This document shows, piece by piece, positions 11,541 to 38,180 of a stretch of 64,000 nt of DNA; within the stretch, counting starts at the first letter, position 1, and the number at the start of each line of letters is the position of its first letter. The translations under genes were made by a program, and so were the position numbers. Under the pieces are notes generated by a model. It did no database searches. It saw only the letters and a program-made list of their open reading frames with translations, and was not told where the DNA came from. The stretch lies in the NCBI GenBank assembly GCA_031257915.1, contig JAIRNR010000003.1:7670-71669 (forward strand), written 5' to 3'. This DNA comes from Bacteroidales bacterium (GTDB taxonomy: Bacteria; Bacteroidota; Bacteroidia; Bacteroidales; P3).

Positions 11541-13010
11541 TCACAACTTCCTGCGGGAATGGGCAAAAACAAACCCGCCGTTAACAAGTTCGTAATTCTT
11601 ATTTACATGAATCTTCCTGAATGTAACCTTTACACCCGTGTTCGCCAACAAGGGAATATTAGTGTATCCGGTACCGCTGAAAATACCGTTTTCGCCTGTA
11701 ACATCTTCAATAGAAATAATAAGTCCGCTTGCTGTTTTGACTTTATCAAAGCGATGTAAAATAAAAAGTGAGTCGGTTGCCCGCTCAATTTCAGTAACCA
11801 TCTCTCCACAATTATTTTCAGTTGCTTTATTCGGAAATCTTGTATAAAAAGTTATAACAGGATCATTTTCGCTAACCGCGCCGCTGCCTTCAAAAGCGCA
11901 TGTTGCGGATATTTTACACTCGTATTCCGTACCATTTTCCAGATTGCCGATTTCGGTAAAATCATCTGTGTTGCCGAGCGGCATAGAAAACCATTGCCGG
12001 TCTTTTTTTCTGTAAGAAAGAGTGATAAACGCCGCATTAGCAGAAGGTGTCCATTGAAGTAAGGCACTGTTTTCCGAAGGAGCGGCAGTTAAATTTTTTA
12101 CTCCGATACATCGTTCCTTAATAGAGAAAGTTCTTATTTCGCTATAACCGTTATTTTTTAGAATAAGTTCCTCGCCGCCGGCACTGAAACATTGCGCCCT
12201 GACTCTGTACGCACAGGTGCTTCCTGTTTCTAAAAGCGCATTATTGTTGTCAAAATAACAGTATGTATTGTTTGTTTCCGTTTCGTAAATGCGGGGAAAT
12301 GTATTGAAATACGAATTGATATTTGAAGAAAAATTTTTAGGTACCTGTACAATTTCAAGTGTATATCTGTTATCGGTAAAGCCTGCGGCAGAGCCAATAT
12401 GACGTGGTGTCCAGCGAAAGAAAAATTGCAACGGCACATCTGCATAGAAAACTTCGTTCTGCGCAGGACTTGTGAGAATCGGCGGATCAGGAGAATGAAA
12501 ATAAAATCGTGAAGATATTTCTGTGCGTGATACTTTCGTTCCCGAATAATATTCATACACCTCAAAACGCAGTGTGTAGTTGCCGTCAGGTAAAGAATTT
12601 CCGTTTTTTTGATAATCAGTAAAAGAATACCCTTTAAATGACAAATTTGATAATGAGAAAAACGGCATAAGATCTTCGGTATGGAGTATTTTATCCTCGC
12701 CGCCTTTGATATTCACAGGAATTGAAAGAGGTGCGGGATTTTCAATTTTTCCGTTCGCACCATTTGAAAACTCAAGAACCATTTTTATTTTTACTGTCGC
12801 GTTTGCAACATTTACATCAAGCATTGAAAGGTGCACTTCTATATTGTTTTCACCGGGTATCGCCCATTTTTCAATATTTCTTGACAATTTGGAATACGTT
12901 ACTGTTTGGCTGCGCACAGGTGAAATAATATTTTGCGCACTTGTAAAAAATGGTGCAAGCACAAGTGTTATTATCAAGTAGATGTTAAACTTTTGACATG
13001 TTCGTTTCAT
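11541..13010 (-). CDS. secreted protein with a fibronectin type III-like module
   Basis: Signal peptide ...APFFTSAQN. FN3-like stretch NLTAAPSENSALLQWTPSANAAFITLSYRKK...GTEYECKISA. ATGA overlap with the upstream gene. Confidence 0.6.
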   Translation of the reverse strand: MKRTCQKFNIYLIITLVLAPFFTSAQNIISPVRSQTVTYSKLSRNIEKWAIPGENNIEVHLSMLDVNVANATVKIKMVLEFSNGANGKIENPAPLSIPVNIKGGEDKILHTEDLMPFFSLSNLSFKGYSFTDYQKNGNSLPDGNYTLRFEVYEYYSGTKVSRTEISSRFYFHSPDPPILTSPAQNEVFYADVPLQFFFRWTPRHIGSAAGFTDNRYTLEIVQVPKNFSSNINSYFNTFPRIYETETNNTYCYFDNNNALLETGSTCAYRVRAQCFSAGGEELILKNNGYSEIRTFSIKERCIGVKNLTAAPSENSALLQWTPSANAAFITLSYRKKDRQWFSMPLGNTDDFTEIGNLENGTEYECKISATCAFEGSGAVSENDPVITFYTRFPNKATENNCGEMVTEIERATDSLFILHRFDKVKTASGLIISIEDVTGENGIFSGTGYTNIPLLANTGVKVTFRKIHVNKNYELVNGGFVFAHSRRKL

Positions 13011-15370
13011 AATGAAATTATTTTAATGGTTTTTGTTGATGTTTTATTATTTTCGGCAGTTGCGGTGATTAGTAATATATATGTTCCCGAAGAAAATTTT
13101 TCAGATTCAACAGGCAAATATGTTCTTTCATTTGCACGTAGAAAAAGACTGCTGTAAACAGATTGCTGTCCGGTGGCGATATTATAGACTTTAATATTTA
13201 CGGAAGCGTTAATTCCGGTTTCTATTTCTAATACGCTTTCGGACGTAATCGGCTGCGGATACACACTTGCATAGTTGATAATTGAGAAAGATGATTTTTG
13301 TTCGGGGTATTTTTGCTGCGGCATATTTACAATTACGGATACTTCTTTTTCGGCGACACAATTATAATAATACCCAAACATTCCTACTTTAAAAATTCCC
13401 GTATCATTGAATTGCAGTTCAAGTTCGTGATAGTCTTCATAGCGCAGTTCCGCCTCAGGTGGAAATGTCCACAATATACTGTCGAAGCGGGTTAAGGAAA
13501 CATTTACTGCAAGTCCGATGTCGTAAAGCGTAAATTCGGAACAGAGCCAAAAATCGGCGGCAATGCTGCTGTCGCAAGGTATGAGTGTATCAATGGGTGG
13601 CGTGACTGTGGTGTCCGGTGGTGTAACAATGGTGTCGGGCGGTATGACGATAGTGTCCGGTGGTATGACGATAGTGTCCGGTGGTGTAATAATAGTATCG
13701 GGTGGTATAACGATAGTGTCCGGCGGTGCAACGATGGTATCGGGTGGTGCAATGATAGTGTCGGGCGGTATGACAATAGTATCAGGTGGTATAATGACAG
13801 TGTCCGGTGGTGCAATGATAGTGTCCGGCGGTATGACAATAGTATCAGGTGGTATAATGACAGTGTCCGGTGGTGTAATAATAGTATCGGGTGGTATGAC
13901 AATAGTATCCGGCGGTGCAATGATAGTATCAGGTGGTATAATGACAGTGTCCGGTGGTGCAATAATAGTATCGGGTGGTATGACGATAGTGTCCGGTGGT
14001 GTAATAAGAGTATCGGGTGGTATAACGATAGTGTCCGGCGGTGCGACGATGGTATCGGGTGGTGCAATGATAGTGTCGGGCGGTATGACAATAGTATCAG
14101 GTGGTATAACAATAGTGTCCGACGGTGCAACAATGGTATCGGGTGGTGTAATAATAGTGTCCGGCGGCACAATGACAGTGTCCGGCGGTGCAACAATAGT
14201 GTCCGGCGGTATAATGACAGTATCCGGCGGTACAACAATAGTATCCGGCGGCACGACAAAAGTATCCGGTGGTGTAATAATCGTATCGGGCGGCACGACA
14301 ATAGTATCCGGTGGTATAACAACAGTGTCCTGTGGTTTAACAGAAGTGTCCGCTTCAACTTTTATTCTGCTCGAAGAAACAAGCCCTGTACGCTGTCCGT
14401 ATCCGATAGCATAGTATTCACCCGCCCCTGCGTCATAAAGAAAATTTTCCAAACCACTTTTAAGTAATACGCCGTTTTTGTACCATTCGACAAACAGCAC
14501 TTCAGGTTTATTATATTGCACAATGGAAAGATGGGCATCGCTGACATTCGCGTCCGAAAGCGGTTTATCAAGTGAAATGCCTATATGTAATGTGTCAGGC
14601 GAAATCATAATAGTGTCGTGAATATCCAAGGAACAGCCGTTATTATCCCATAAGGTAAAAACTATCGGCATCTGGCAACCAAAATATATTGTATCGTAAG
14701 AACTTTCAAGACCCAATTCTTTGTATAAAATTTCGTATGGCGGCGTTCCGTTCTTAATACTTTCAAAATCAAAAGCAAAAAATGCACTCCTGCCGCTTTC
14801 CCATTCCCCGTCAAAAAATTGCATTCCTGAAATATCTTTTTTTGTATATGATATTTCCATTTTTGCAACAGAATTGATAACAAATTCAAGCCATAATTCG
14901 CCTTCCATACGAAAAAATCCATTATTAAAATGATATGAAGCAAATAGCATGTAATCTCCGGGCGGCAATGAAAAGAAACCGAAAGTTGCGTATGACTCGC
15001 TTGTTGCGGTATAATGATTCGGAATATATTCCGTAAATCCGATAGAATCACTGTGCTGCAAATAAAAAGTAAAAGATTCCGGCGGATTATTATCCAAAAC
15101 ATGTTTATTTATCGTTAATATCATATTTCCCGATTGAGATTCACTCCAGCAAACAGGGTCATACGTTCTTATTGAATAGGGTAAAGACAGAGTCTTTGTT
15201 TGCGGCGTCTGCGTTGATAAGTTGTGCGTAAATTTATCGTATTCGGGTAAAGTCTGCGGGGATAAATCATGCCCGAATGAATTACATGCTGACAAAGCAT
15301 ATACAGGTGAAGTGAATACCGGCAAAAGTAAATTGCAAAAAATCAGTGTTGAGAATAAAAAGTGTTTCAT
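13007..15370 (-). CDS. T9SS cargo protein with about 35 tandem PPDTIVI heptads, a PKD-like module and a Por C-terminal sorting domain
   Basis: Signal peptide. The C-terminal ~85 aa (VYPQPITSESVLEIE...IKVYNIATGQQ...SGTYILLITA...KTIKIISL) fit the T9SS CTD pattern (YPNP...G.Y...K). Confidence 0.8.
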   Translation of the reverse strand: MKHFLFSTLIFCNLLLPVFTSPVYALSACNSFGHDLSPQTLPEYDKFTHNLSTQTPQTKTLSLPYSIRTYDPVCWSESQSGNMILTINKHVLDNNPPESFTFYLQHSDSIGFTEYIPNHYTATSESYATFGFFSLPPGDYMLFASYHFNNGFFRMEGELWLEFVINSVAKMEISYTKKDISGMQFFDGEWESGRSAFFAFDFESIKNGTPPYEILYKELGLESSYDTIYFGCQMPIVFTLWDNNGCSLDIHDTIMISPDTLHIGISLDKPLSDANVSDAHLSIVQYNKPEVLFVEWYKNGVLLKSGLENFLYDAGAGEYYAIGYGQRTGLVSSSRIKVEADTSVKPQDTVVIPPDTIVVPPDTIITPPDTFVVPPDTIVVPPDTVIIPPDTIVAPPDTVIVPPDTIITPPDTIVAPSDTIVIPPDTIVIPPDTIIAPPDTIVAPPDTIVIPPDTLITPPDTIVIPPDTIIAPPDTVIIPPDTIIAPPDTIVIPPDTIITPPDTVIIPPDTIVIPPDTIIAPPDTVIIPPDTIVIPPDTIIAPPDTIVAPPDTIVIPPDTIITPPDTIVIPPDTIVIPPDTIVTPPDTTVTPPIDTLIPCDSSIAADFWLCSEFTLYDIGLAVNVSLTRFDSILWTFPPEAELRYEDYHELELQFNDTGIFKVGMFGYYYNCVAEKEVSVIVNMPQQKYPEQKSSFSIINYASVYPQPITSESVLEIETGINASVNIKVYNIATGQQSVYSSLFLRANERTYLPVESEKFSSGTYILLITATAENNKTSTKTIKIISL
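13590..14335 (-). repeat. 21-bp tandem repeat array (about 35 units) encoding PPDT[IV][IV]x
   Basis: Plus strand reads GGTGG(T/C)(A/G)T(A/G)ACNATAGTGTCCGGTGG... repeatedly. Higher-order 63-bp periodicity is visible (IVI/IIA/VII triplets). Confidence 0.9.
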
Positions 15371-15609
15371 ACTGTCTAAATTTTAGGCAGCAAAAATAAT
15401 ACACTAAAAACTTATTACTGAGAAAAAAATGTTAAAGTTTCTTAAACGTTAAGAGTTTTTAACTTTTGTCTTAAAATTTTCTTAAAAAATGAGATAAAAT
15501 GCCTCTCTTTTTAACAACACAATGTTAGAGAATTTATATTTTTGCCTGACGAAAAGACCACTTAAATAGGTAATTTAGCAAAATAAAAGTAAGTATTAAC
15601 AGGCAAATA

Positions 15610-18600
15610 ATGAAACAAAAGGTAATATTATTATTAACGTTATTGCTTTTCGTGTTGCCGCTGTCGGCACAAAAAACACATTTTTATGATGAGCCGGATG
15701 CGACTTTTCGTTCTGCGGTAGAATTATATTCAAAAGCAAAATACGGCAGTGCGCAAAAGCAGTTTGAATGGGTGCTTAAAAAGTTGCAAAACTCGCAGGG
15801 CAATAAACATGATGGTGCAAATGTTGATTACATGCGCGAAGAAGCGATGTATTATTCTGCAATGTGCAACATAAAACTTTTTCATTCTCATTCCGACGCT
15901 CCGCTTATCCGCTTTTTGCATGAATATCCGCAAAGTTTGCGGATAAACAGTATTTACCTTTCTCTCGGGAACTTTGAATATACGCAAAAACGGTACAAAG
16001 AGACCATAGAATATTATGAAAAAGTAAATACGGATGCTCTTTCTCCTGAGGATAAAAATGAATTTACTTTTCGCAAGGGATATGCTCTTTTTATGCAGAA
16101 AAAATATCTTGACGCTGAAGTACTTTTTTATTCTTTGATTGAAGAAGATATGCGCTATCGTGTAGTTTCAACGTATTACTACGCATACTGTCTGTATGTA
16201 CAGGAGAAATATCAAAGTGCGCGTACCGAGTTTGAAAAGATAGAAGACGACCCTTCTTTCGCAACAATTATTCCCTATTTTCTTTTGCAGATTGATTATA
16301 AACAGAAGGAATACGATAAGGTGATAGATAAAGGACTTGAACTTTTTTCCGATGCAAAACAGACAAGAAAGATAGAACTTTCGCATTTGATAGGCGACAG
16401 TTATTTGAAAAAAGGTAAGTATCAGGAAGCGTTGCCGTACTTAAAGATGTATGTTTCCCTGTCGCCCGAAAATCCGGATCCTGCCGATAATTATAATCTT
16501 GGGTATGCTTATTTCGGAATAAAAAAATATGATTCCTCCGCATACTTTTTTCAAAAAGTTGCAACGCTTTCCGATACTTCATATCAGCGTTTGATACAGA
16601 GTTCGCTTTACCATTTGGGATATATTTATTCGCAGCAGGATTTGATAAGATTTGCGCAGGAAGCGTTTCGCAGTGCGGCAGATATGGAGAGCGGCAATAC
16701 GGTTTTGCAGGAAGATGCATTTTATAATTATGCAAAACTTGTACATCAAAAGGGGCAGGCAACATATCAGGAAAAGGCAGATGCGTTAAGGGGTTTTCTT
16801 ACAAAGTATCCGTATTCGGTTTATAATAATATTATTCATGCCTATCTTGTGGATGTTCTTATGACGACCCACTCTTACAGAGAAGCACTTGAAACGCTTG
16901 CCGAAATTCCTTATAAAACGGCGGAAATGAAAGAAGCGGAACAGCGTCTTTTCTTTGGCAGAGCGGTTGAACTTTTTAATATTGAAGATTATGAAAGTGC
17001 GTTTGACGCATTTACTTCGTGTGAGAAAAACAGCTATAATGATATTTATACATCGCGTGCAATTTATTGGAAAGGGATGTGTCTTTCCGTTCTTGATAAA
17101 AAGCAGGAAGCGATGGCTGAGTATAATAGATTTTTATCGTTGCCGTCATCTAAAAATACGGAAGAATACGCCTACGCATTGTATTGTATGGGCGTAATTC
17201 AGATGGAACAGAATCAATATGCTGCTGCTGCCTCGCAGTTTAATCGGTTCGTGCTTTTAACGCAAGATTCTGTTTACAGGCGGGACGCTTTAATGAATAT
17301 TGCCGATTGCAAATTTATGCTTAAACAGTACAATACGGCTTTTGACGATTACGATAAGGCTATGGTTGCCGACGACGGTCGAAACGATTATGCTTTATAT
17401 CAGCAGGCGTTATGCTCCGGTGCAATGGCAAAATATGCACAAAAAATTTCTTTATTGAAAAAAGTAAATGTTTCAAGTTCGTTGATGCCGCAGGTATTAA
17501 GTGAACTCGGTGCAACCGAAATGCTGCTTGAGAATAATGTTAAGGCGGAAGACGCTTTCAGCGGACTTATTCGTGAGTATCCCAATCATCCTCTCGTGAA
17601 AAATGCTTATATGAAAATAGGCATGATGTATTTTAATGAAGGTAAAAATAAAGAGGCGTTGGAATATTTTAAAAAAGTGATAGAAAAATATCAGGGAACT
17701 TCGGAAGCGAAACAATCGCTGCTTACGCTGAAGAATATCTACATTGCAATGAATAAGCCTGACGAATTTTTTGATTATGCGAAAAAAATGTCGGGTGTGA
17801 AAATAGATGAACAGGAGCAGGATTCCATCCTTTATTTAGCGGCGGAAAATATTTATTTTGAAGGAAACTTTAGCGAGGCGGCAAAATCATTTACAAAATA
17901 TATTGAGCAGTTTCCGAAAGGATTTTTTGTTGTTGAAGCATTACATTCGCTTGCCGATTGCGCAGTTCGTACAAACGATGGAAATCTTGCGAAAAGCACT
18001 TATCAAAAATTGGCAAATATTCCCGCAACGCCTTATACGGAGCAAGCTACTATAACTGTTGCAGGCATGGAGTTTTCAGATAAAAATTTCACTGCTGCAC
18101 TTGAAAATTATACACGTTTGCGCTCTATTGCAAGCACGCCGGCTAATGCGCTTTTGGCACAAACAGGAATTATGCGTTCGTATGTGCAGATGGATAGAAA
18201 GAAAGAGGCAGTTGACGAAGCGCAGATATTACTTAAAATGGATAGACTGTCGGACAATCAAAAAGACGAGGCGAATATTACTATTGCACGTCTTTCGCGT
18301 CAGATGGGCGATAATGAACTGAGCGACGATTCATATATGCGTCTTACCTCGTCTAAAAATCCGAATTATCAAGCGGAAGCACGTTATATTTTAATAGAGG
18401 GTATGGTGCGGGACGGCTTACTTGTGGAAGCGGAACAGAAGATTGTTGACTATATTTCGGATGCGCCGGGCAATGATGAATATCTTGCAAAGATGTTTAT
18501 TCTTTGGTCGGATATTTATTTTCAGCGTGGAAATTTTTTGCAGGCAAAACAGACATTACGGAGTGTAATTGATAATTATGATGATGGGGACGATAGTGAT

Positions 18601-35906: not shown

Positions 35907-37220
35907 ATGAAGATTACGATAGTAGGAACAGGCTATGTAGGTCTTGTGACAGGTGTATGTTTTGCCGAAGTAGGCATTGACGTTTGTTGTGTTGATGTTG
36001 ATAAAGAAAAAATAGTCAAATTAAAAAAGGGTATCTCACCCATCTATGAGCAGGGTTTGGAGGAAATGCTGCTCAATAATATTGAAAGAGGGCGGATTAC
36101 TTTTTCCGATTCTCTGAAAGAGGGGATGAAAGATGCGGAAGTTATTTTTTCTGCCGTAGGCACTCCGCCTGACGAAGACGGCAGTGCGGATTTGCGCTAT
36201 GTTCTTGATGTCGCTCACGAGATAGGGCGCAATATGAACGAATACGTTCTTGTTGTAACAAAAAGTACCGTTCCTGTCGGTACTGCCGAAAAAGTACGTG
36301 TGGCAATAGAAGAAGAACTTACTGCAAGGGGTGTTGATATTAAGTTTGACATTGCATCAAATCCCGAATTTTTAAAAGAAGGTACGGCAATAAATGATTT
36401 TATGTACCCTGAAAGAATTGTTGTCGGCGTAAGTTCTATTCGCGGACAGGAAGTAATGGCACGTCTTTACAAACCGTTTACTCTTAATGGTCATCCTATA
36501 ATTTTTATGGATATTCCGTCTGCCGAAATGACCAAATATGCCGCGAACTCAATGCTTGCAACCCGAATCAGTTTTATGAACGACATTGCTAATTTGTGCG
36601 AACTTGTGGGAGCTGATGTTAATGCAGTGCGTAAGGGTATAGGTAGCGATACTCGTATAGGCAGTAAATTTTTATACCCGGGTATTGGCTATGGGGGCAG
36701 TTGCTTTCCGAAAGATGTGAAAGCACTTATTAAAACTGCTTCCGACAACAATTATAAAATGGGGGTTTTGTCTGCTGTTGAGGAAGTGAATGAAACGCAG
36801 AAATCGCTGATGTTTCATAAATTTATGGCTCACTTTGACGGTAAAGTTAAAGGTATGACCGTTGGTTTTTGGGGTTTGGCATTTAAGCCCGGCACGGACG
36901 ACATGCGTGAAGCACCATCGCTTGTAATGATAGAAAAACTTCGTAAGGCAGGTGTCAATATACGTGCATACGATCCTGTATCAATGCCCGAAAGCAAACG
37001 CCGCATAGGTAATGCAATTACATATTGTAAAGATATGTATGAAACGGCTTATAAGGTAGATGCACTTTTCCTGATTACCGAGTGGACAGAGTTTCGTTTT
37101 CCGGACTGGAAAAAAATTGCTTCTAATTTAAAAAACAAAGTGTTTTTTGATGGTCGCAATCTCTACGAGAAAAAAGAACTGCAACAGGAAGGATTTACTT
37201 ATTACGGCGTTGGGTTGTAG
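35907..37220 (+). CDS. ugd: UDP-glucose 6-dehydrogenase
   Basis: MKITIVGTGYVGLVTG Rossmann fold, catalytic GYGGSCFPKD, and the C-terminal UDP-binding domain. Confidence 0.93.
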   Translation: MKITIVGTGYVGLVTGVCFAEVGIDVCCVDVDKEKIVKLKKGISPIYEQGLEEMLLNNIERGRITFSDSLKEGMKDAEVIFSAVGTPPDEDGSADLRYVLDVAHEIGRNMNEYVLVVTKSTVPVGTAEKVRVAIEEELTARGVDIKFDIASNPEFLKEGTAINDFMYPERIVVGVSSIRGQEVMARLYKPFTLNGHPIIFMDIPSAEMTKYAANSMLATRISFMNDIANLCELVGADVNAVRKGIGSDTRIGSKFLYPGIGYGGSCFPKDVKALIKTASDNNYKMGVLSAVEEVNETQKSLMFHKFMAHFDGKVKGMTVGFWGLAFKPGTDDMREAPSLVMIEKLRKAGVNIRAYDPVSMPESKRRIGNAITYCKDMYETAYKVDALFLITEWTEFRFPDWKKIASNLKNKVFFDGRNLYEKKELQQEGFTYYGVGL

Positions 37221-37223
37221 TTG

Positions 37224-37332
37224 CAGGGCTAACGCGTTTATAATGCTTATTCTTGATGAAAATTTATAAAAATTTGCGTTTGTAATTTATTCGTTATCAA
37301 CAAATTAACTTGTTTAAATGTGTTGACCCTCG
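37224..37332. mobile_element. MITE-like element (~105 bp) with imperfect 17-18 bp terminal inverted repeats and a 9-bp target duplication
   Basis: Arms AGGGCTAACGCGTTTATA (37225-) and TTTAAATGTGTTGACCCT (-37330). TTGTAGTTG flanks both ends (37215-37223 and 37333-37341). No ORF inside. Confidence 0.7.
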
Positions 37333-37387
37333 TTGTAGTTGAAATTTCAAATAAAAACAAGTATCTTTGTATGAGATTTCAAATATT

Positions 37388-37708
37388 ATGGTGCAAAAGA
37401 ATGACACTTTTTCTTTACGTCTAAAAAAAATAATGCCTGAAGTTGGTGAGAATATTAAACTGGCACGGCTTCGGCGGGGGTTTTCTGCGGCACTTATAGC
37501 CGAGAGAGCAAACATAGCAACATCAACATTATGGCTAATTGAAAAGGGTAGCGGAAGCGTATCTTTTGGAAGTTACGCAAAAGTACTGTTTGTTCTCGGA
37601 TTAGAAAAAGATTTGCTGCACCTTGCAAAAGACGACATACTTGGAAGAAAATTGCAAGATGCAGAGATATTAACCAAAAAACGTGCGCCAAAACGAATGA
37701 TTGTATGA
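37388..37708 (+). CDS. XRE-family HTH regulator, HipB-like (orphan)
   Basis: VGENIKLARLRRGFSAALIAERANIATSTLWLIEKG is an HTH_3 motif. A TATCTTTG box lies about 25 nt upstream. Confidence 0.75.
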   Translation: MVQKNDTFSLRLKKIMPEVGENIKLARLRRGFSAALIAERANIATSTLWLIEKGSGSVSFGSYAKVLFVLGLEKDLLHLAKDDILGRKLQDAEILTKKRAPKRMIV

Positions 37709-37753
37709 AGAAGTTGCAGAATAATGTACCCCAATTTTAAGATCAATAGTCAA

Positions 37754-37783
37754 GGTTGACCCTGAGGGCAAACGCATTTAAAA
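37754..37783. repeat. back-to-back repeat arms GGTTGACCCT-G-AGGGCAAACGCATTTAAAA
   Basis: A right-arm core is joined to a left arm with a single-nt spacer. It ends 1 nt before the vapC stop codon. Confidence 0.65.
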
Positions 37784-37784
37784 T

Positions 37785-38180
37785 TTACAGTAATTGCAGT
37801 CCGCTTATTCTCTTAAAATGATTTTTATTGAAAGTGACTATCGGTAAGTTACTATAGACAGCAGTAGTGGCAATAAATAAATCATTTAGTTCTATTATTT
37901 GGTTTGCTCTTTTCAGATTTTGATATATGTTTGCTGATAAGATTGCTATTTCAGAATTAAAAGGGATTTGTTTTATTATATTAAATAATGTGTCCCAAAA
38001 TTCTGTTTCCTGTTCATTTTTTATTCCATTAAATATTTCAAAAACGGTAATTGTAGAAATGGCAAGATTGTAATTGTCAATTAATTCTGTTAGCAAAGCT
38101 TTATCTTTATTTGACTTGCGGTAATAATCAATAAAGATGGAAGTATCTACGAGTATATCTTTGCTGTCCATCTTTTCCAC
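37785..38180 (-). CDS. vapC: PIN-domain toxin VapC
   Basis: ILVDTSIFIDY (Asp1), VFEIFNG (Glu), LNDLFIATTA (Asp), and a TFN tail. 131 aa. Confidence 0.85.
   Translation of the reverse strand: MEKMDSKDILVDTSIFIDYYRKSNKDKALLTELIDNYNLAISTITVFEIFNGIKNEQETEFWDTLFNIIKQIPFNSEIAILSANIYQNLKRANQIIELNDLFIATTAVYSNLPIVTFNKNHFKRISGLQLL

What the first reader, a model, noticed from the sequence alone, without database searches (positions are those of the whole stretch)
13590..14335. About 35 consecutive PPDT[IV][IV]x heptads in a T9SS-secreted protein
The 787-aa protein carries an uninterrupted run of 21-bp units encoding PPDTIVI/PPDTIIA/PPDTVII and similar variants. A higher-order three-unit periodicity is visible. 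The run sits between an N-terminal ~340-aa region and a PKD-like module plus the T9SS sorting domain. The Pro-Pro-Asp-Thr plus three beta-branched residues pattern is unlike common bacterial repeats such as collagen-like, pentapeptide or Ser/Thr-rich linkers. It could form a rigid extended stalk or a novel beta-solenoid, and Thr is a potential O-glycosylation site. Near-identical DNA units make the length prone to variation by recombination or slippage.
Basis: seen in the sequence. Interest (0 to 1): 0.6.

Follow-up and report, generated by a model that had tools for sequence, protein, structure and literature searches.

The report
Proline-Asp-Thr heptad stalk in secreted protein
A surface protein of an uncultured Bacteroidales bacterium carries 35 back-to-back seven-residue units that most likely form a long, probably sugar-coated spacer holding its working end away from the cell; it is an unusually long example of a recurring linker type, not a new kind of machine.

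Summary
A 787-aa gene (13007-15370, minus strand) holds 35 indel-free heptads P-P-D-T-[IV]-[IV]-x (aa 346-590).

Orthologues carry about 25 heptads, a different 18-residue PPIDT repeat, or no array at all. The array is therefore a dispensable, lineage-variable insert at a domain junction.

The C-terminus is a divergent type A T9SS sorting domain (profile-profile probability 95.5%). The genome encodes PorU, SprA and at least 73 such domains.

Similar Pro-Asp-Thr arrays sit next to the anchor in unrelated proteins: after lipoprotein cysteines and before a type B sorting domain.

Of the 36 D-T sites, 35 fit the Bacteroidota O-glycosylation motif D-(S/T)-(A/I/L/V/M/T). The array carries net charge -35.

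Best reading (about 0.55): an extended, polyanionic, probably O-glycosylated mucin-like stalk. A beta-solenoid is weakly hinted at by AlphaFold (pLDDT below 60) and is not excluded.

Earlier notes of this scan report sequon-saturated repeats in Bacteroidota cargo on other DNA.

The parts
13007..15370 (-). Whole gene, 787 aa (P0001): secreted T9SS cargo with the heptad array
   Evidence: ORF list and translation. Four full-length homologues plus one fragment share the frame on both sides of the array.
15296..15370 (-). Sec signal peptide, aa 1-25 (MKH + hydrophobic core + VYA, then LS)
   Evidence: Read from the sequence. Orthologues P0002, P0005 and P0007 have comparable N-termini without the Cys, so a type I signal peptide is inferred. 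No signal-peptide predictor was available.
14348..15205 (-). Conserved N-terminal all-beta region (aa ~56-341), function unknown
   Evidence: 52-65% identity to P0002-P0005 and P0007, with many invariant aromatic and Gly residues. No Pfam or NCBIfam match. Not found in 400 sampled genomes of the same order beyond two weak 33% matches.
13601..14335 (-). 35 heptads P-P-D-T-[IV]-[IV]-x (aa 346-590): proposed extended, polyanionic, O-glycosylated stalk
   Evidence: composition P 27.8%, I 22.9%, T 17.6%, D 14.3%, V 12.2%; net charge -35. The array is absent or different in orthologues. AlphaFold pLDDT is about 30.
13580..13600 (-). Degenerate terminal unit PPIDTLI, the 'seed' present in every orthologue, including those without an array
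   Evidence: Alignment A1: P592, D594, T595 and L596 are invariant in all five proteins.
13301..13579 (-). Beta-sandwich (PKD/Ig-like) module, aa ~598-690
   Evidence: Together with the sorting domain, this region is homologous to the C-termini of 990-3080-aa proteins; the four of these scanned against Pfam contain SprB repeats. The equivalent region of P0029 gives a sub-threshold PKD hit. AlphaFold predicts strands, and Foldseek matches tandem Ig/FN3 pairs including PorU.
13010..13273 (-). Divergent type A T9SS C-terminal sorting domain, aa ~700-787
   Evidence: Pfam PF18962 19.1 bits (cut-off 27) and TIGR04183 21.8 bits (cut-off 23). hhalign of the family's C-termini against 25 bona fide sorting domains of the same genome gives probability 95.5%, E 1.5e-8, aligned end to end. 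AlphaFold pLDDT is 70-80 here.
11541..13010 (-). Translationally coupled partner gene (489 aa, signal peptide, FN3-like), ATGA stop/start overlap
   Evidence: The overlap is read in the sequence. Orthologues follow the heptad-family gene in L122 (59% and 55% identity in two segments, same ...SRRKL end), in L123 (62% identity, 4-nt overlap) and, by gene position only, in L128.
15391..15398 (-). TATTTTTG, a match to the Bacteroidetes -7 promoter motif TAnnTTTG, ending 20 nt upstream of the ATG
   Evidence: Regex on the 239-nt upstream spacer. This is a consensus match only; the motif definition comes from my own knowledge of Bacteroides promoters.

Best explanation
The array is a variable-length, non-globular stalk. 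The protein is exported by Sec. In the periplasm, the Thr of each D-T-[I/V/L/T] unit is probably O-glycosylated by the phylum's general system. The protein is then passed through the T9SS. The PorU sortase is expected to remove the C-terminal sorting domain and join the new C-terminus to anionic LPS. The protein would therefore be tethered by its C-terminal end, with the PKD-like module next to the membrane. The 245-residue proline-punctuated segment carries 35 negative charges, no basic residues and, if modified, about 35 glycans. It would act as a stiff mucin-like bottle-brush that projects the conserved N-terminal domain, and perhaps its co-expressed FN3 partner, tens of nanometres outward. 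Shown here: the array, its selection at the peptide level, its dispensability and variability among orthologues, the sorting domain, the presence of T9SS machinery, and the sequon match. Inferred: actual glycosylation, extended conformation, LPS anchoring, and the function of the N-terminal domain.
For: (1) Orthologues have ~25 heptads (P0002), a contig-truncated PPDT array (P0007), an 18-residue PPIDTVT-PPIV-PPIDTIA repeat (P0005), or only the single PPIDT seed (P0003, P0004), with both flanks conserved. (2) P, P, D and T are invariant despite mixed synonymous codons. P0002's array behaves the same way. (3) The sorting domain matches at hhalign 95.5%. PorU scores 939 bits, SprA scores 2426 bits, and at least 73 sorting domains are present in the genome. 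(4) The same kind of array lies next to the anchor in unrelated architectures. These are lipobox-array-polysaccharide deacetylase (P0027), array-CHU_C type B sorting domain (P0014), lipobox-array (P0023), lipobox-array-Omp28 (P0168), and a Chitinophaga costaii LTD protein (P0163). (5) 35/36 D-T sites in P0001, 25/25 in P0002 and 22/22 in P0005 fit D-(S/T)-(A/I/L/V/M/T). The motif, its near-full occupancy and its transferability are described in PMC12871550. T9SS cargo can be heavily O-glycosylated in T. forsythia (PMC8729774, PMC10897501). (6) In PPDT arrays from a genome-wide DNA scan, the residue after D-[ST] is sequon-compatible in 18/19 sites in Bacteroidota, 242/265 in Gemmatimonadota and 14/15 in Fibrobacterota. 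In other phyla it is 95/310. (7) AlphaFold gives no confident fold for the array. The best-scoring non-family hit among 1.8 billion proteins is an animal mucin with PPGTTAG heptads. (8) Net charge -35 with no basic residue disfavours compaction.
Against: No experimental or read-level data exist: glycosylation, surface location and even expression are untested. Three consecutive beta-branched hydrophobic residues per unit (35% I+V) are atypical for a disordered linker and could instead form strands. AlphaFold on the array alone places a short strand in every heptad, with a 21-residue pattern, and its nearest (non-significant) structural neighbours are left-handed beta-helices. In P. gingivalis, abundant T9SS cargo is selected against O-glycosylation (PMC8729774). 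The O-oligosaccharyltransferase is unknown, so its presence in this genome cannot be checked. PPDT heptads also occur outside Bacteroidota. Many coding repeats in this genome carry no sequon. The hits sharing D-T were found with a D-T query, which is an ascertainment bias.
Confidence: 0.55

Rival explanations
1. Folded beta-solenoid. Three heptads (21 residues) form one triangular coil, with PP at the corners and D-T-I-V-I as the sides. This would give a rigid rod of about 6 nm, possibly oligomeric or cation-stabilised, rather than an extended glycosylated chain.
For: There is a weak 3-unit super-period in both P0001 and P0002. AlphaFold on the array alone gives a 2-5-residue strand per heptad, with longer strands spaced about 21 residues apart. 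The top Foldseek neighbours are all left-handed beta-helix enzymes such as GlmU, LpxA and gamma-carbonic anhydrase.
Against: No residue reaches pLDDT 70. Foldseek E-values are >= 0.038 and TM-scores <= 0.2. The full-length model shows almost no regular structure in the array. Orthologues change the period (7, 7/8, 18) or lack the array altogether. Related arrays have periods of 15 and 19. A stacked ladder of 35 uncompensated Asp residues, plus two hydrophobic residues facing outward on each side, would be unfavourable (inference). There is no Hexapep or other solenoid Pfam hit.
Confidence: 0.15
2. A plain proline-rich spacer without glycans. The array is a rigid linker, like the TonB or Gram-positive wall-spanning Pro-rich regions, and the sequon match is incidental.
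For: PPDTxxx heptads with non-sequon residues after Thr (R, P, N, G) are common in Actinomycetota and other phyla. Many repeats in this genome lack sequons. Surface cargo in P. gingivalis avoids O-glycosylation.
Against: D and T are the only features shared with proline-free or proline-poor arrays. Examples are KDTTAIY in this genome and KNDTIV/PGDTIY elsewhere. The position after Thr stays within the sequon set in 82/83 sites across three orthologues. Reported occupancy of such motifs in non-cytoplasmic proteins is high.
Confidence: 0.2
3. Assembly artefact or decaying gene. The unit count, or the open frame, is produced by mis-assembly of a repeat in a 109-contig metagenome bin.
For: Related contigs break at or near such arrays. 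P0007 ends inside its array, and L127 is a chimeric 853-bp contig whose homology to the gene begins just downstream of the array. A 136-bp near-identical block recurs 315 bp away. Reads could not be consulted.
Against: There are no repeated k-mers at k >= 65. The frame is intact over 735 bp with 0% indels. Both flanks align to orthologues. An independent assembly carries a ~25-unit array in a complete gene.
Confidence: 0.05

Closest known systems
O-glycosylated T9SS cargo of Bacteroidota (e.g. Tannerella forsythia S-layer glycoproteins TfsA/TfsB)
   Same: Sec signal, type A C-terminal sorting domain, and D-(S/T)-(A/I/L/V/M/T) sequons in an exported surface protein. The same pathway is expected: periplasmic O-glycosylation, then T9SS export and PorU/A-LPS anchoring (PMC8729774, PMC12871550).
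   Different: In the known cases the sites are scattered through folded domains (19 in TfsB, 11 in TfsA). Here 35 sites are packed one per seven residues in a dedicated low-complexity module. Glycosylation is untested here.
Mucin PTS tandem repeats and Pro/Thr-rich O-glycosylated linkers of secreted glycoside hydrolases
   Same: Short Pro- and Thr-rich tandem units, copy number that varies between relatives, no stable predicted fold, and a spacer role. The best non-family HMMER hit is an animal mucin with PPGTTAG heptads.
   Different: No homology. The units contain an invariant Asp and three beta-branched hydrophobic residues (I/V 35%), which PTS domains lack. The glycosylation chemistry would be the Bacteroidota en-bloc system.
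PPDT / PxDT arrays in other Bacteroidota proteins (P0027 deacetylase lipoprotein, P0014 CHU_C protein, P0168 Omp28 lipoprotein, Chitinophaga costaii LTD protein P0163)
   Same: The same motif core (Pro, D-T, then I/V/T) and the same position adjacent to the membrane anchor.
   Different: These arrays have fewer units than the 35 here (P0014's has comparable residue length), other periods (7+8, 7+4+8), unrelated passenger domains, and no shared ancestry outside the repeat.
Left-handed beta-helix (hexapeptide-repeat) proteins such as LpxA and GlmU
   Same: Short repeats rich in I/V. A 3-unit super-period could equal one triangular coil. They are the nearest Foldseek neighbours of the low-confidence model.
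   Different: The period is 7/21, not 6/18. There are two Pro residues per unit. There is no Pfam Hexapep hit, and the structural match is not significant.
SprB-repeat gliding/adhesion proteins
   Same: The last ~190 residues (beta-sandwich module plus sorting domain) are homologous to the C-termini of 990-3080-aa proteins that contain SprB repeats where scanned (E 1e-30 to 1e-11).
   Different: P0001 has no SprB repeats. Its N-terminal region is a separate, very rare family.

Membership tests
T9SS type A cargo | C-terminal sorting domain (Por_Secre_tail, PF18962 / TIGR04183) | tested here: met
   The curated cut-offs are missed (19.1 vs 27 bits; 21.8 vs 23 bits). However, hhalign of the family's C-termini against 25 above-threshold sorting domains of the same genome gives probability 95.5%, E 1.5e-8, over the full length, with YPQP/YPNP, G-x-Y and K-I-I motifs aligned. 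Homologous C-termini in SprB-repeat proteins pass the Pfam cut-off.
T9SS type A cargo | N-terminal Sec signal peptide | tested here: inconclusive
   A typical n-h-c layout is read from the sequence and conserved in orthologues. No predictor was available.
T9SS type A cargo | T9SS machinery in the genome (translocon, sortase) | tested here: met
   SprA TIGR04189 scores 2426 bits and PorU NF033707 scores 939 bits, both over their cut-offs. 73 TIGR04183 matches are over the cut-off.
Bacteroidota general O-glycoprotein | Sequon D-(S/T)-(A/I/L/V/M/T) in a non-cytoplasmic protein | tested here: met
   35 of the 36 D-T sites in and next to the array fit (one is D-T-F). There are 40 sequons in the whole protein. 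The motif definition is from PMC12871550.
Bacteroidota general O-glycoprotein | Glycan actually attached to Ser/Thr | not testable with these tools
   This needs glycoproteomics.
Bacteroidota general O-glycoprotein | Glycosylation machinery present | not testable with these tools
   The oligosaccharyltransferase, core flippase and ligase are undiscovered (PMC12871550), so no marker can be searched.
Left-handed beta-helix / beta-solenoid | Hexapeptide (18-residue coil) periodicity and a Hexapep profile match | tested here: not met
   The period is 7/21. There is no Pfam hit other than the sorting domain.
Left-handed beta-helix / beta-solenoid | Confident solenoid fold | tested here: inconclusive
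   AlphaFold pLDDT is 48, with no residue at or above 70. Foldseek's best E-value is 0.038 with TM <= 0.2.
Collagen-like / pentapeptide repeats | G-X-Y triplets, or an A(D/N)LXX 5-residue period | tested here: not met
   There is no Gly in the array and the period is 7.
Slippage-driven phase-variable or contingency repeat | Near-identical short DNA units | tested here: not met
   Mean unit identity is 76%, adjacent units are 72% identical, and the longest exact repeat is 64 bp.

The most novel reading that the evidence does not exclude
The heptad array is a previously undescribed triangular beta-solenoid. Three PPDTxxx units (21 residues) would form each coil, with Pro-Pro corners, giving a rigid polyanionic rod. 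The rod could be stabilised by cations or by oligomerisation. It would be a new solenoid class recurring in anchor-proximal positions of Bacteroidota surface proteins.
Probability: 0.12. Interest if true: 0.7.

Novelty: new variant of a known kind. Interest (0 to 1): 0.45.

Why it matters
If the array is glycosylated at every unit, it would be a bacterial, genetically compact equivalent of a mucin domain, built by the Bacteroidota general O-glycosylation system. That system's transferase is still unknown. A seven-residue unit repeated 35 times would make a strong acceptor substrate for finding that enzyme, and a ready-made module for displaying glycans or setting the reach of surface proteins. 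The contrast among orthologues with 0, ~25 and 35 units offers a natural experiment on how stalk length affects the function of T9SS-anchored proteins. If it is not glycosylated, it is simply an unusually long proline-rich spacer in a rare protein family.

Tried and rejected
- **More family members:** the metagenome-contig scan with the family alignment found no relatives.
- **Family distribution:** the N-terminal domain was sought in 400 genomes of the same order. Only two marginal 33% matches in giant proteins were found.
- **Literature:** a search for 'PPDT repeat' returned only unrelated acronyms. A search for tandem sequon repeats or proline-rich linkers in Bacteroidota found no precedent.
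- **Naming of hits:** the cluster look-up gave no organism names for nine of the ten proteins queried (the PPDT-like hits); only orthologue P0002 carried a label, 'hypothetical protein'.
- **Prediction that failed:** I expected PPDT heptads to be confined to Bacteroidota. They occur in many phyla. Only the sequon-compatible residue after Thr is concentrated in Bacteroidota, Gemmatimonadota and Fibrobacterota.
- **Prediction that failed:** I expected coding repeats in this genome to carry sequons generally. Most do not.
- **Shadow ORFs:** the ORFs on the opposite strand and in the alternative frame (13563..14414 +, 13504..14358 -) were rejected as shadows of the repeat. Only the 787-aa frame has homologues.
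- **Lipoprotein reading:** the LSAC at aa 26-29 was rejected as a lipobox because the Cys is absent from orthologues.
- **Independent check of unit number:** L127, a ~99% identical strain fragment, was examined. Its 5' part is a chimeric inverted duplicate, so it is uninformative.
Full report
**Observation**

The minus-strand ORF 13007..15370 encodes a 787-aa protein. Residues 346-590 (window 14335..13601) are 35 uninterrupted heptads, followed by a degenerate unit PPIDTLI.
- Position 1 (Pro), Asp and Thr are invariant in all 35 units. The second Pro holds in 33/35.
- Positions 5-7 are restricted to I/V (plus one each of F, L and T), then V/I, then I/A/T/V.
- Tandem Repeats Finder reports 0% indels. 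Its best score is at a 63-bp period.
- Unit-to-unit amino-acid identity peaks at a lag of three units (0.80 against 0.72-0.77). The three-unit super-period is therefore real but weak.

The DNA units are not near-identical.
- Mean pairwise identity is 76%, and neighbouring units are the least alike (72%).
- The invariant residues use mixed synonymous codons (CCA 21/CCG 14; GAC 18/GAT 17). This pattern points to long-standing purifying selection on the peptide rather than a recently slipped array.
- One 136-bp block (units 11-18) recurs 15 units downstream with 134/136 matches. At least one segmental duplication is therefore recent.
- No k-mer of 65 nt or longer is repeated.

**The rest of the protein**

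The N-terminus reads as a Sec signal peptide: MKH, a hydrophobic core, then VYA before LS.

Residues ~56-341 form a conserved all-beta region with no Pfam or NCBIfam match.

The C-terminal ~88 residues match the type A T9SS sorting domain only below the curated cut-offs (19.1 vs 27 bits; 21.8 vs 23 bits). A profile of the family's C-termini was therefore aligned against 25 above-threshold sorting domains from the same genome.
- The result is hhalign probability 95.5%, E 1.5e-8, end to end, with the hallmark motifs aligned.
- Residues ~600-783 are also homologous (E 1e-30 to 1e-11) to the C-termini of 990-3080-aa proteins. Four of these were scanned against Pfam; all four contain SprB repeats, and their tails pass the Pfam threshold.
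- In the full-length AlphaFold model this is the best-predicted part (pLDDT 70-80). Foldseek matches tandem Ig/FN3 pairs, including PorU.

The genome is a 2.49-Mb, 109-contig, 86%-complete bin with 39.9% GC. It encodes SprA (2426 bits), the PorU sortase (939 bits) and 73 above-threshold sorting domains. The label 'T9SS cargo' is therefore justified.

**Relatives**

The family is very small.
- A search of 5.8 billion proteins with the N-terminal region found four members.
- The exhaustive HMMER scan added one fragment (P0007) and a 98%-identical C-terminal piece (P0013).
- One member is annotated as coming from a Bacteroidales MAG.

The alignment shows both flanks conserved at 52-65% identity, while the array region differs between members.

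| Protein | Array region |
|---|---|
| P0002 | ~25 D-T units, nearly all heptads |
| P0007 | breaks off inside a PPDT array |
| P0005 | ~11 copies of an 18-residue unit, PPIDTVT-PPIV-PPIDTIA |
| P0003, P0004 | only the single seed (A/L)PIDT that every member has |

DNA units are slightly more alike within an array (0.76 and 0.74) than between the P0001 and P0002 arrays (0.69). This suggests lineage-specific expansion or homogenisation. The array is thus a dispensable insert, variable in both length and period, at a domain junction. That is how spacers behave; folded domains do not usually behave this way.

The downstream 489-aa FN3-like gene overlaps the stop codon (ATGA). It is conserved next to the orthologues:
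- 59% and 55% identity over two aligned segments in L122, with the same ...SRRKL terminus;
- 62% identity in L123, with a 4-nt overlap;
- a 4-nt overlapping downstream gene in L128, judged by position only.

The two genes therefore form a conserved pair, and the partner is not truncated.

**Similar arrays elsewhere**

The whole-library HMMER scan gave 1195 hits, almost all to the repeat. The best non-family hit is an animal mucin with PPGTTAG heptads. This is a compositional analogue, not a homologue.

Among bacterial hits, Pro-Asp-Thr arrays recur next to membrane anchors in unrelated architectures:
- lipobox Cys, then 13 PPDTVII units, then a polysaccharide deacetylase (P0027);
- PPLDTIV-PPIDTVIV repeats directly before a CHU_C type B T9SS domain (P0014);
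- lipobox, then PPDTIIT / PGDTIYL / KNDTIV units (P0023);
- lipobox, then PSDTIVV / PQDTIVN units, then Omp28 (P0168);
- a Chitinophaga costaii lamin-tail-domain protein with PPDTVVT-PPVT-PPDTTVIT repeats (P0163).

The loci came from many phyla, so the motif is not unique to Bacteroidota. No PPDT array in that sample exceeded 18 units.

**Sequon reading**

D-T-[I/V/L/T] is exactly the Bacteroidota general O-glycosylation motif D-(S/T)-(A/I/L/V/M/T). According to PMC12871550:
- the motif acts in non-cytoplasmic proteins;
- Glu cannot replace Asp in B. fragilis;
- occupancy is generally near complete;
- engineered motifs become glycosylated;
- the transferase is still unknown.

Fits to the motif in this family are 35/36 sites in P0001, 25/25 in P0002 and 22/22 in P0005.

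In the pattern-scan loci that lie in ORFs of at least 150 aa, I counted the residue after D-[ST] (top four residues per locus).

| Phylum group | Sequon-compatible residue after D-[ST] |
|---|---|
| Bacteroidota | 18/19 |
| Gemmatimonadota | 242/265 |
| Fibrobacterota | 14/15 |
| Other phyla | 95/310 |

The review itself notes motif enrichment in Fibrobacterota. These counts are not independent, and the sample is truncated.

Within the window's own genome, two arrays stand far above the rest for sequon density. One is this array. The other is a KDTTAI[YNDH] heptad array in a lipoprotein on contig C18. A third, PPVDTSAI[VI], has Ser after Thr. What these arrays share is D-T plus beta-branched residues, not proline. 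Most other coding repeats in this repeat-rich genome carry no sequon, so this is not a genome-wide habit.

T9SS cargo can be heavily O-glycosylated: 120 sites in 18 cargo proteins of T. forsythia, with 19 in TfsB. In P. gingivalis, by contrast, abundant surface cargo avoids it (PMC8729774, PMC10897501).

**Structure**

- AlphaFold on the full protein, with the five-sequence alignment, gives pLDDT about 30 and almost no regular structure across the array.
- The array alone, in single-sequence mode, gives mean pLDDT 47.9, with no residue at or above 70. It shows a short strand in each heptad and a roughly 21-residue pattern.
- Foldseek finds only non-significant left-handed beta-helix neighbours (E >= 0.038, TM <= 0.2).
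- The array is 27.8% Pro, 35% I+V, 17.6% Thr and 14.3% Asp, with net charge -35 and no basic residue.

A stacked solenoid would have to bury or align 35 uncompensated carboxylates, and it would expose two hydrophobic residues per side. An extended chain shielded by glycans avoids both problems. This last step is inference.

**Conclusion**

The most likely reading (about 0.55) is a variable-length, extended, polyanionic stalk. It is probably O-glycosylated once per heptad. It would hold the rare N-terminal domain away from a C-terminal LPS anchor made by PorU (mechanism as described in PMC8729774).

If fully extended at ~0.3 nm per residue, a general figure from my own knowledge, 245 residues could span several tens of nanometres.

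Rivals:
- a novel 21-residue-per-coil beta-solenoid (~0.15);
- an unglycosylated proline-rich spacer (~0.2);
- an assembly artefact (~0.05).

The function of the N-terminal domain and of the FN3 partner remains unknown.

Earlier notes of this scan record other sequon-saturated repeat arrays in Bacteroidota cargo on other DNA. I reached the sequon reading before seeing them, and I did not test them.

Noticed in passing
L002 559-2610 (-) = G000:C18, about 35,941-37,992: A 683-aa lipoprotein (LLLCSC lipobox) in the same genome carries about 18 heptads KDTTAI[YNDH], each holding a D-T-T sequon but no proline. It lies next to a GldJ/PorK-like (SUMF1-type) ORF. Among ORFs of this genome, it has the highest sequon density (11 per 70 aa).
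   Followed up: partly
G000:C52:12200-12465 and C52:13502-14689: A nonapeptide array PPVDTSAI[VI] lies in a 326-aa open frame. About 340 bp downstream begins a 1406-aa ORF with about 13 copies of a 30-aa repeat, LRDS(V/I/M)IAGEQLIIER, carrying 23 sequons in the repeat stretch.
   Followed up: no
window 11541-13010 (-): The 489-aa FN3-like partner gene is not truncated at its 3' end. Its C-terminus ...FVFAHSRRKL aligns end to end with the orthologue in L122 (...FIAETSRRKL), and the pair is conserved in three other contigs. The L122 orthologue has an extra ~70-aa insert and a 311-aa gene inserted between the pair.
   Followed up: yes
30 loci, e.g. L009, L037, L044, L054, L096, L098, L101, L115, L117, L121 (Gemmatimonadota): About 30 Gemmatimonadota loci carry PPDT(L/A/T)G(A/V)-type heptads that commonly end ~26 residues or fewer before the C-terminus of 370-870-aa proteins. 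Two related protein hits (P0172, P0173) have a Big_5 domain, and P0173 also has a lipoprotein-like N-terminus. The residue after Thr is sequon-compatible in 91% of sites, although this phylum is not known to have the Bacteroidota O-glycosylation system.
   Followed up: partly
L127 1-853: An 853-bp contig from another sample is about 99% identical to the gene's 3' end and the start of the partner gene. Its first ~320 bp look like an inverted chimeric duplicate of the downstream sequence. A near-identical strain exists elsewhere, but this contig says nothing about array length.
   Followed up: yes
whole genome G000: The genome is unusually rich in tandem repeats: 338 merged TRF loci in 2.49 Mb. 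Examples include a 12-bp x 57 array encoding VGVNDGAN in a 578-aa ORF (C61:10802-11486), TP and TG dipeptide runs, and many non-coding repeats of 64-86 bp.
   Followed up: no
window 13504-14358 (-) and 13563-14414 (+): Two long ORFs (284 and 283 aa) overlap the array in other frames. They are shadows of the repeat, with no homologues, and should not be annotated.
   Followed up: yes
window 15391-15398 (-): TATTTTTG, a match to the Bacteroidetes -7 promoter motif TAnnTTTG, ends 20 nt upstream of the start codon. It lies in the 239-nt divergent spacer shared with the TPR gene at 15610.
   Followed up: no
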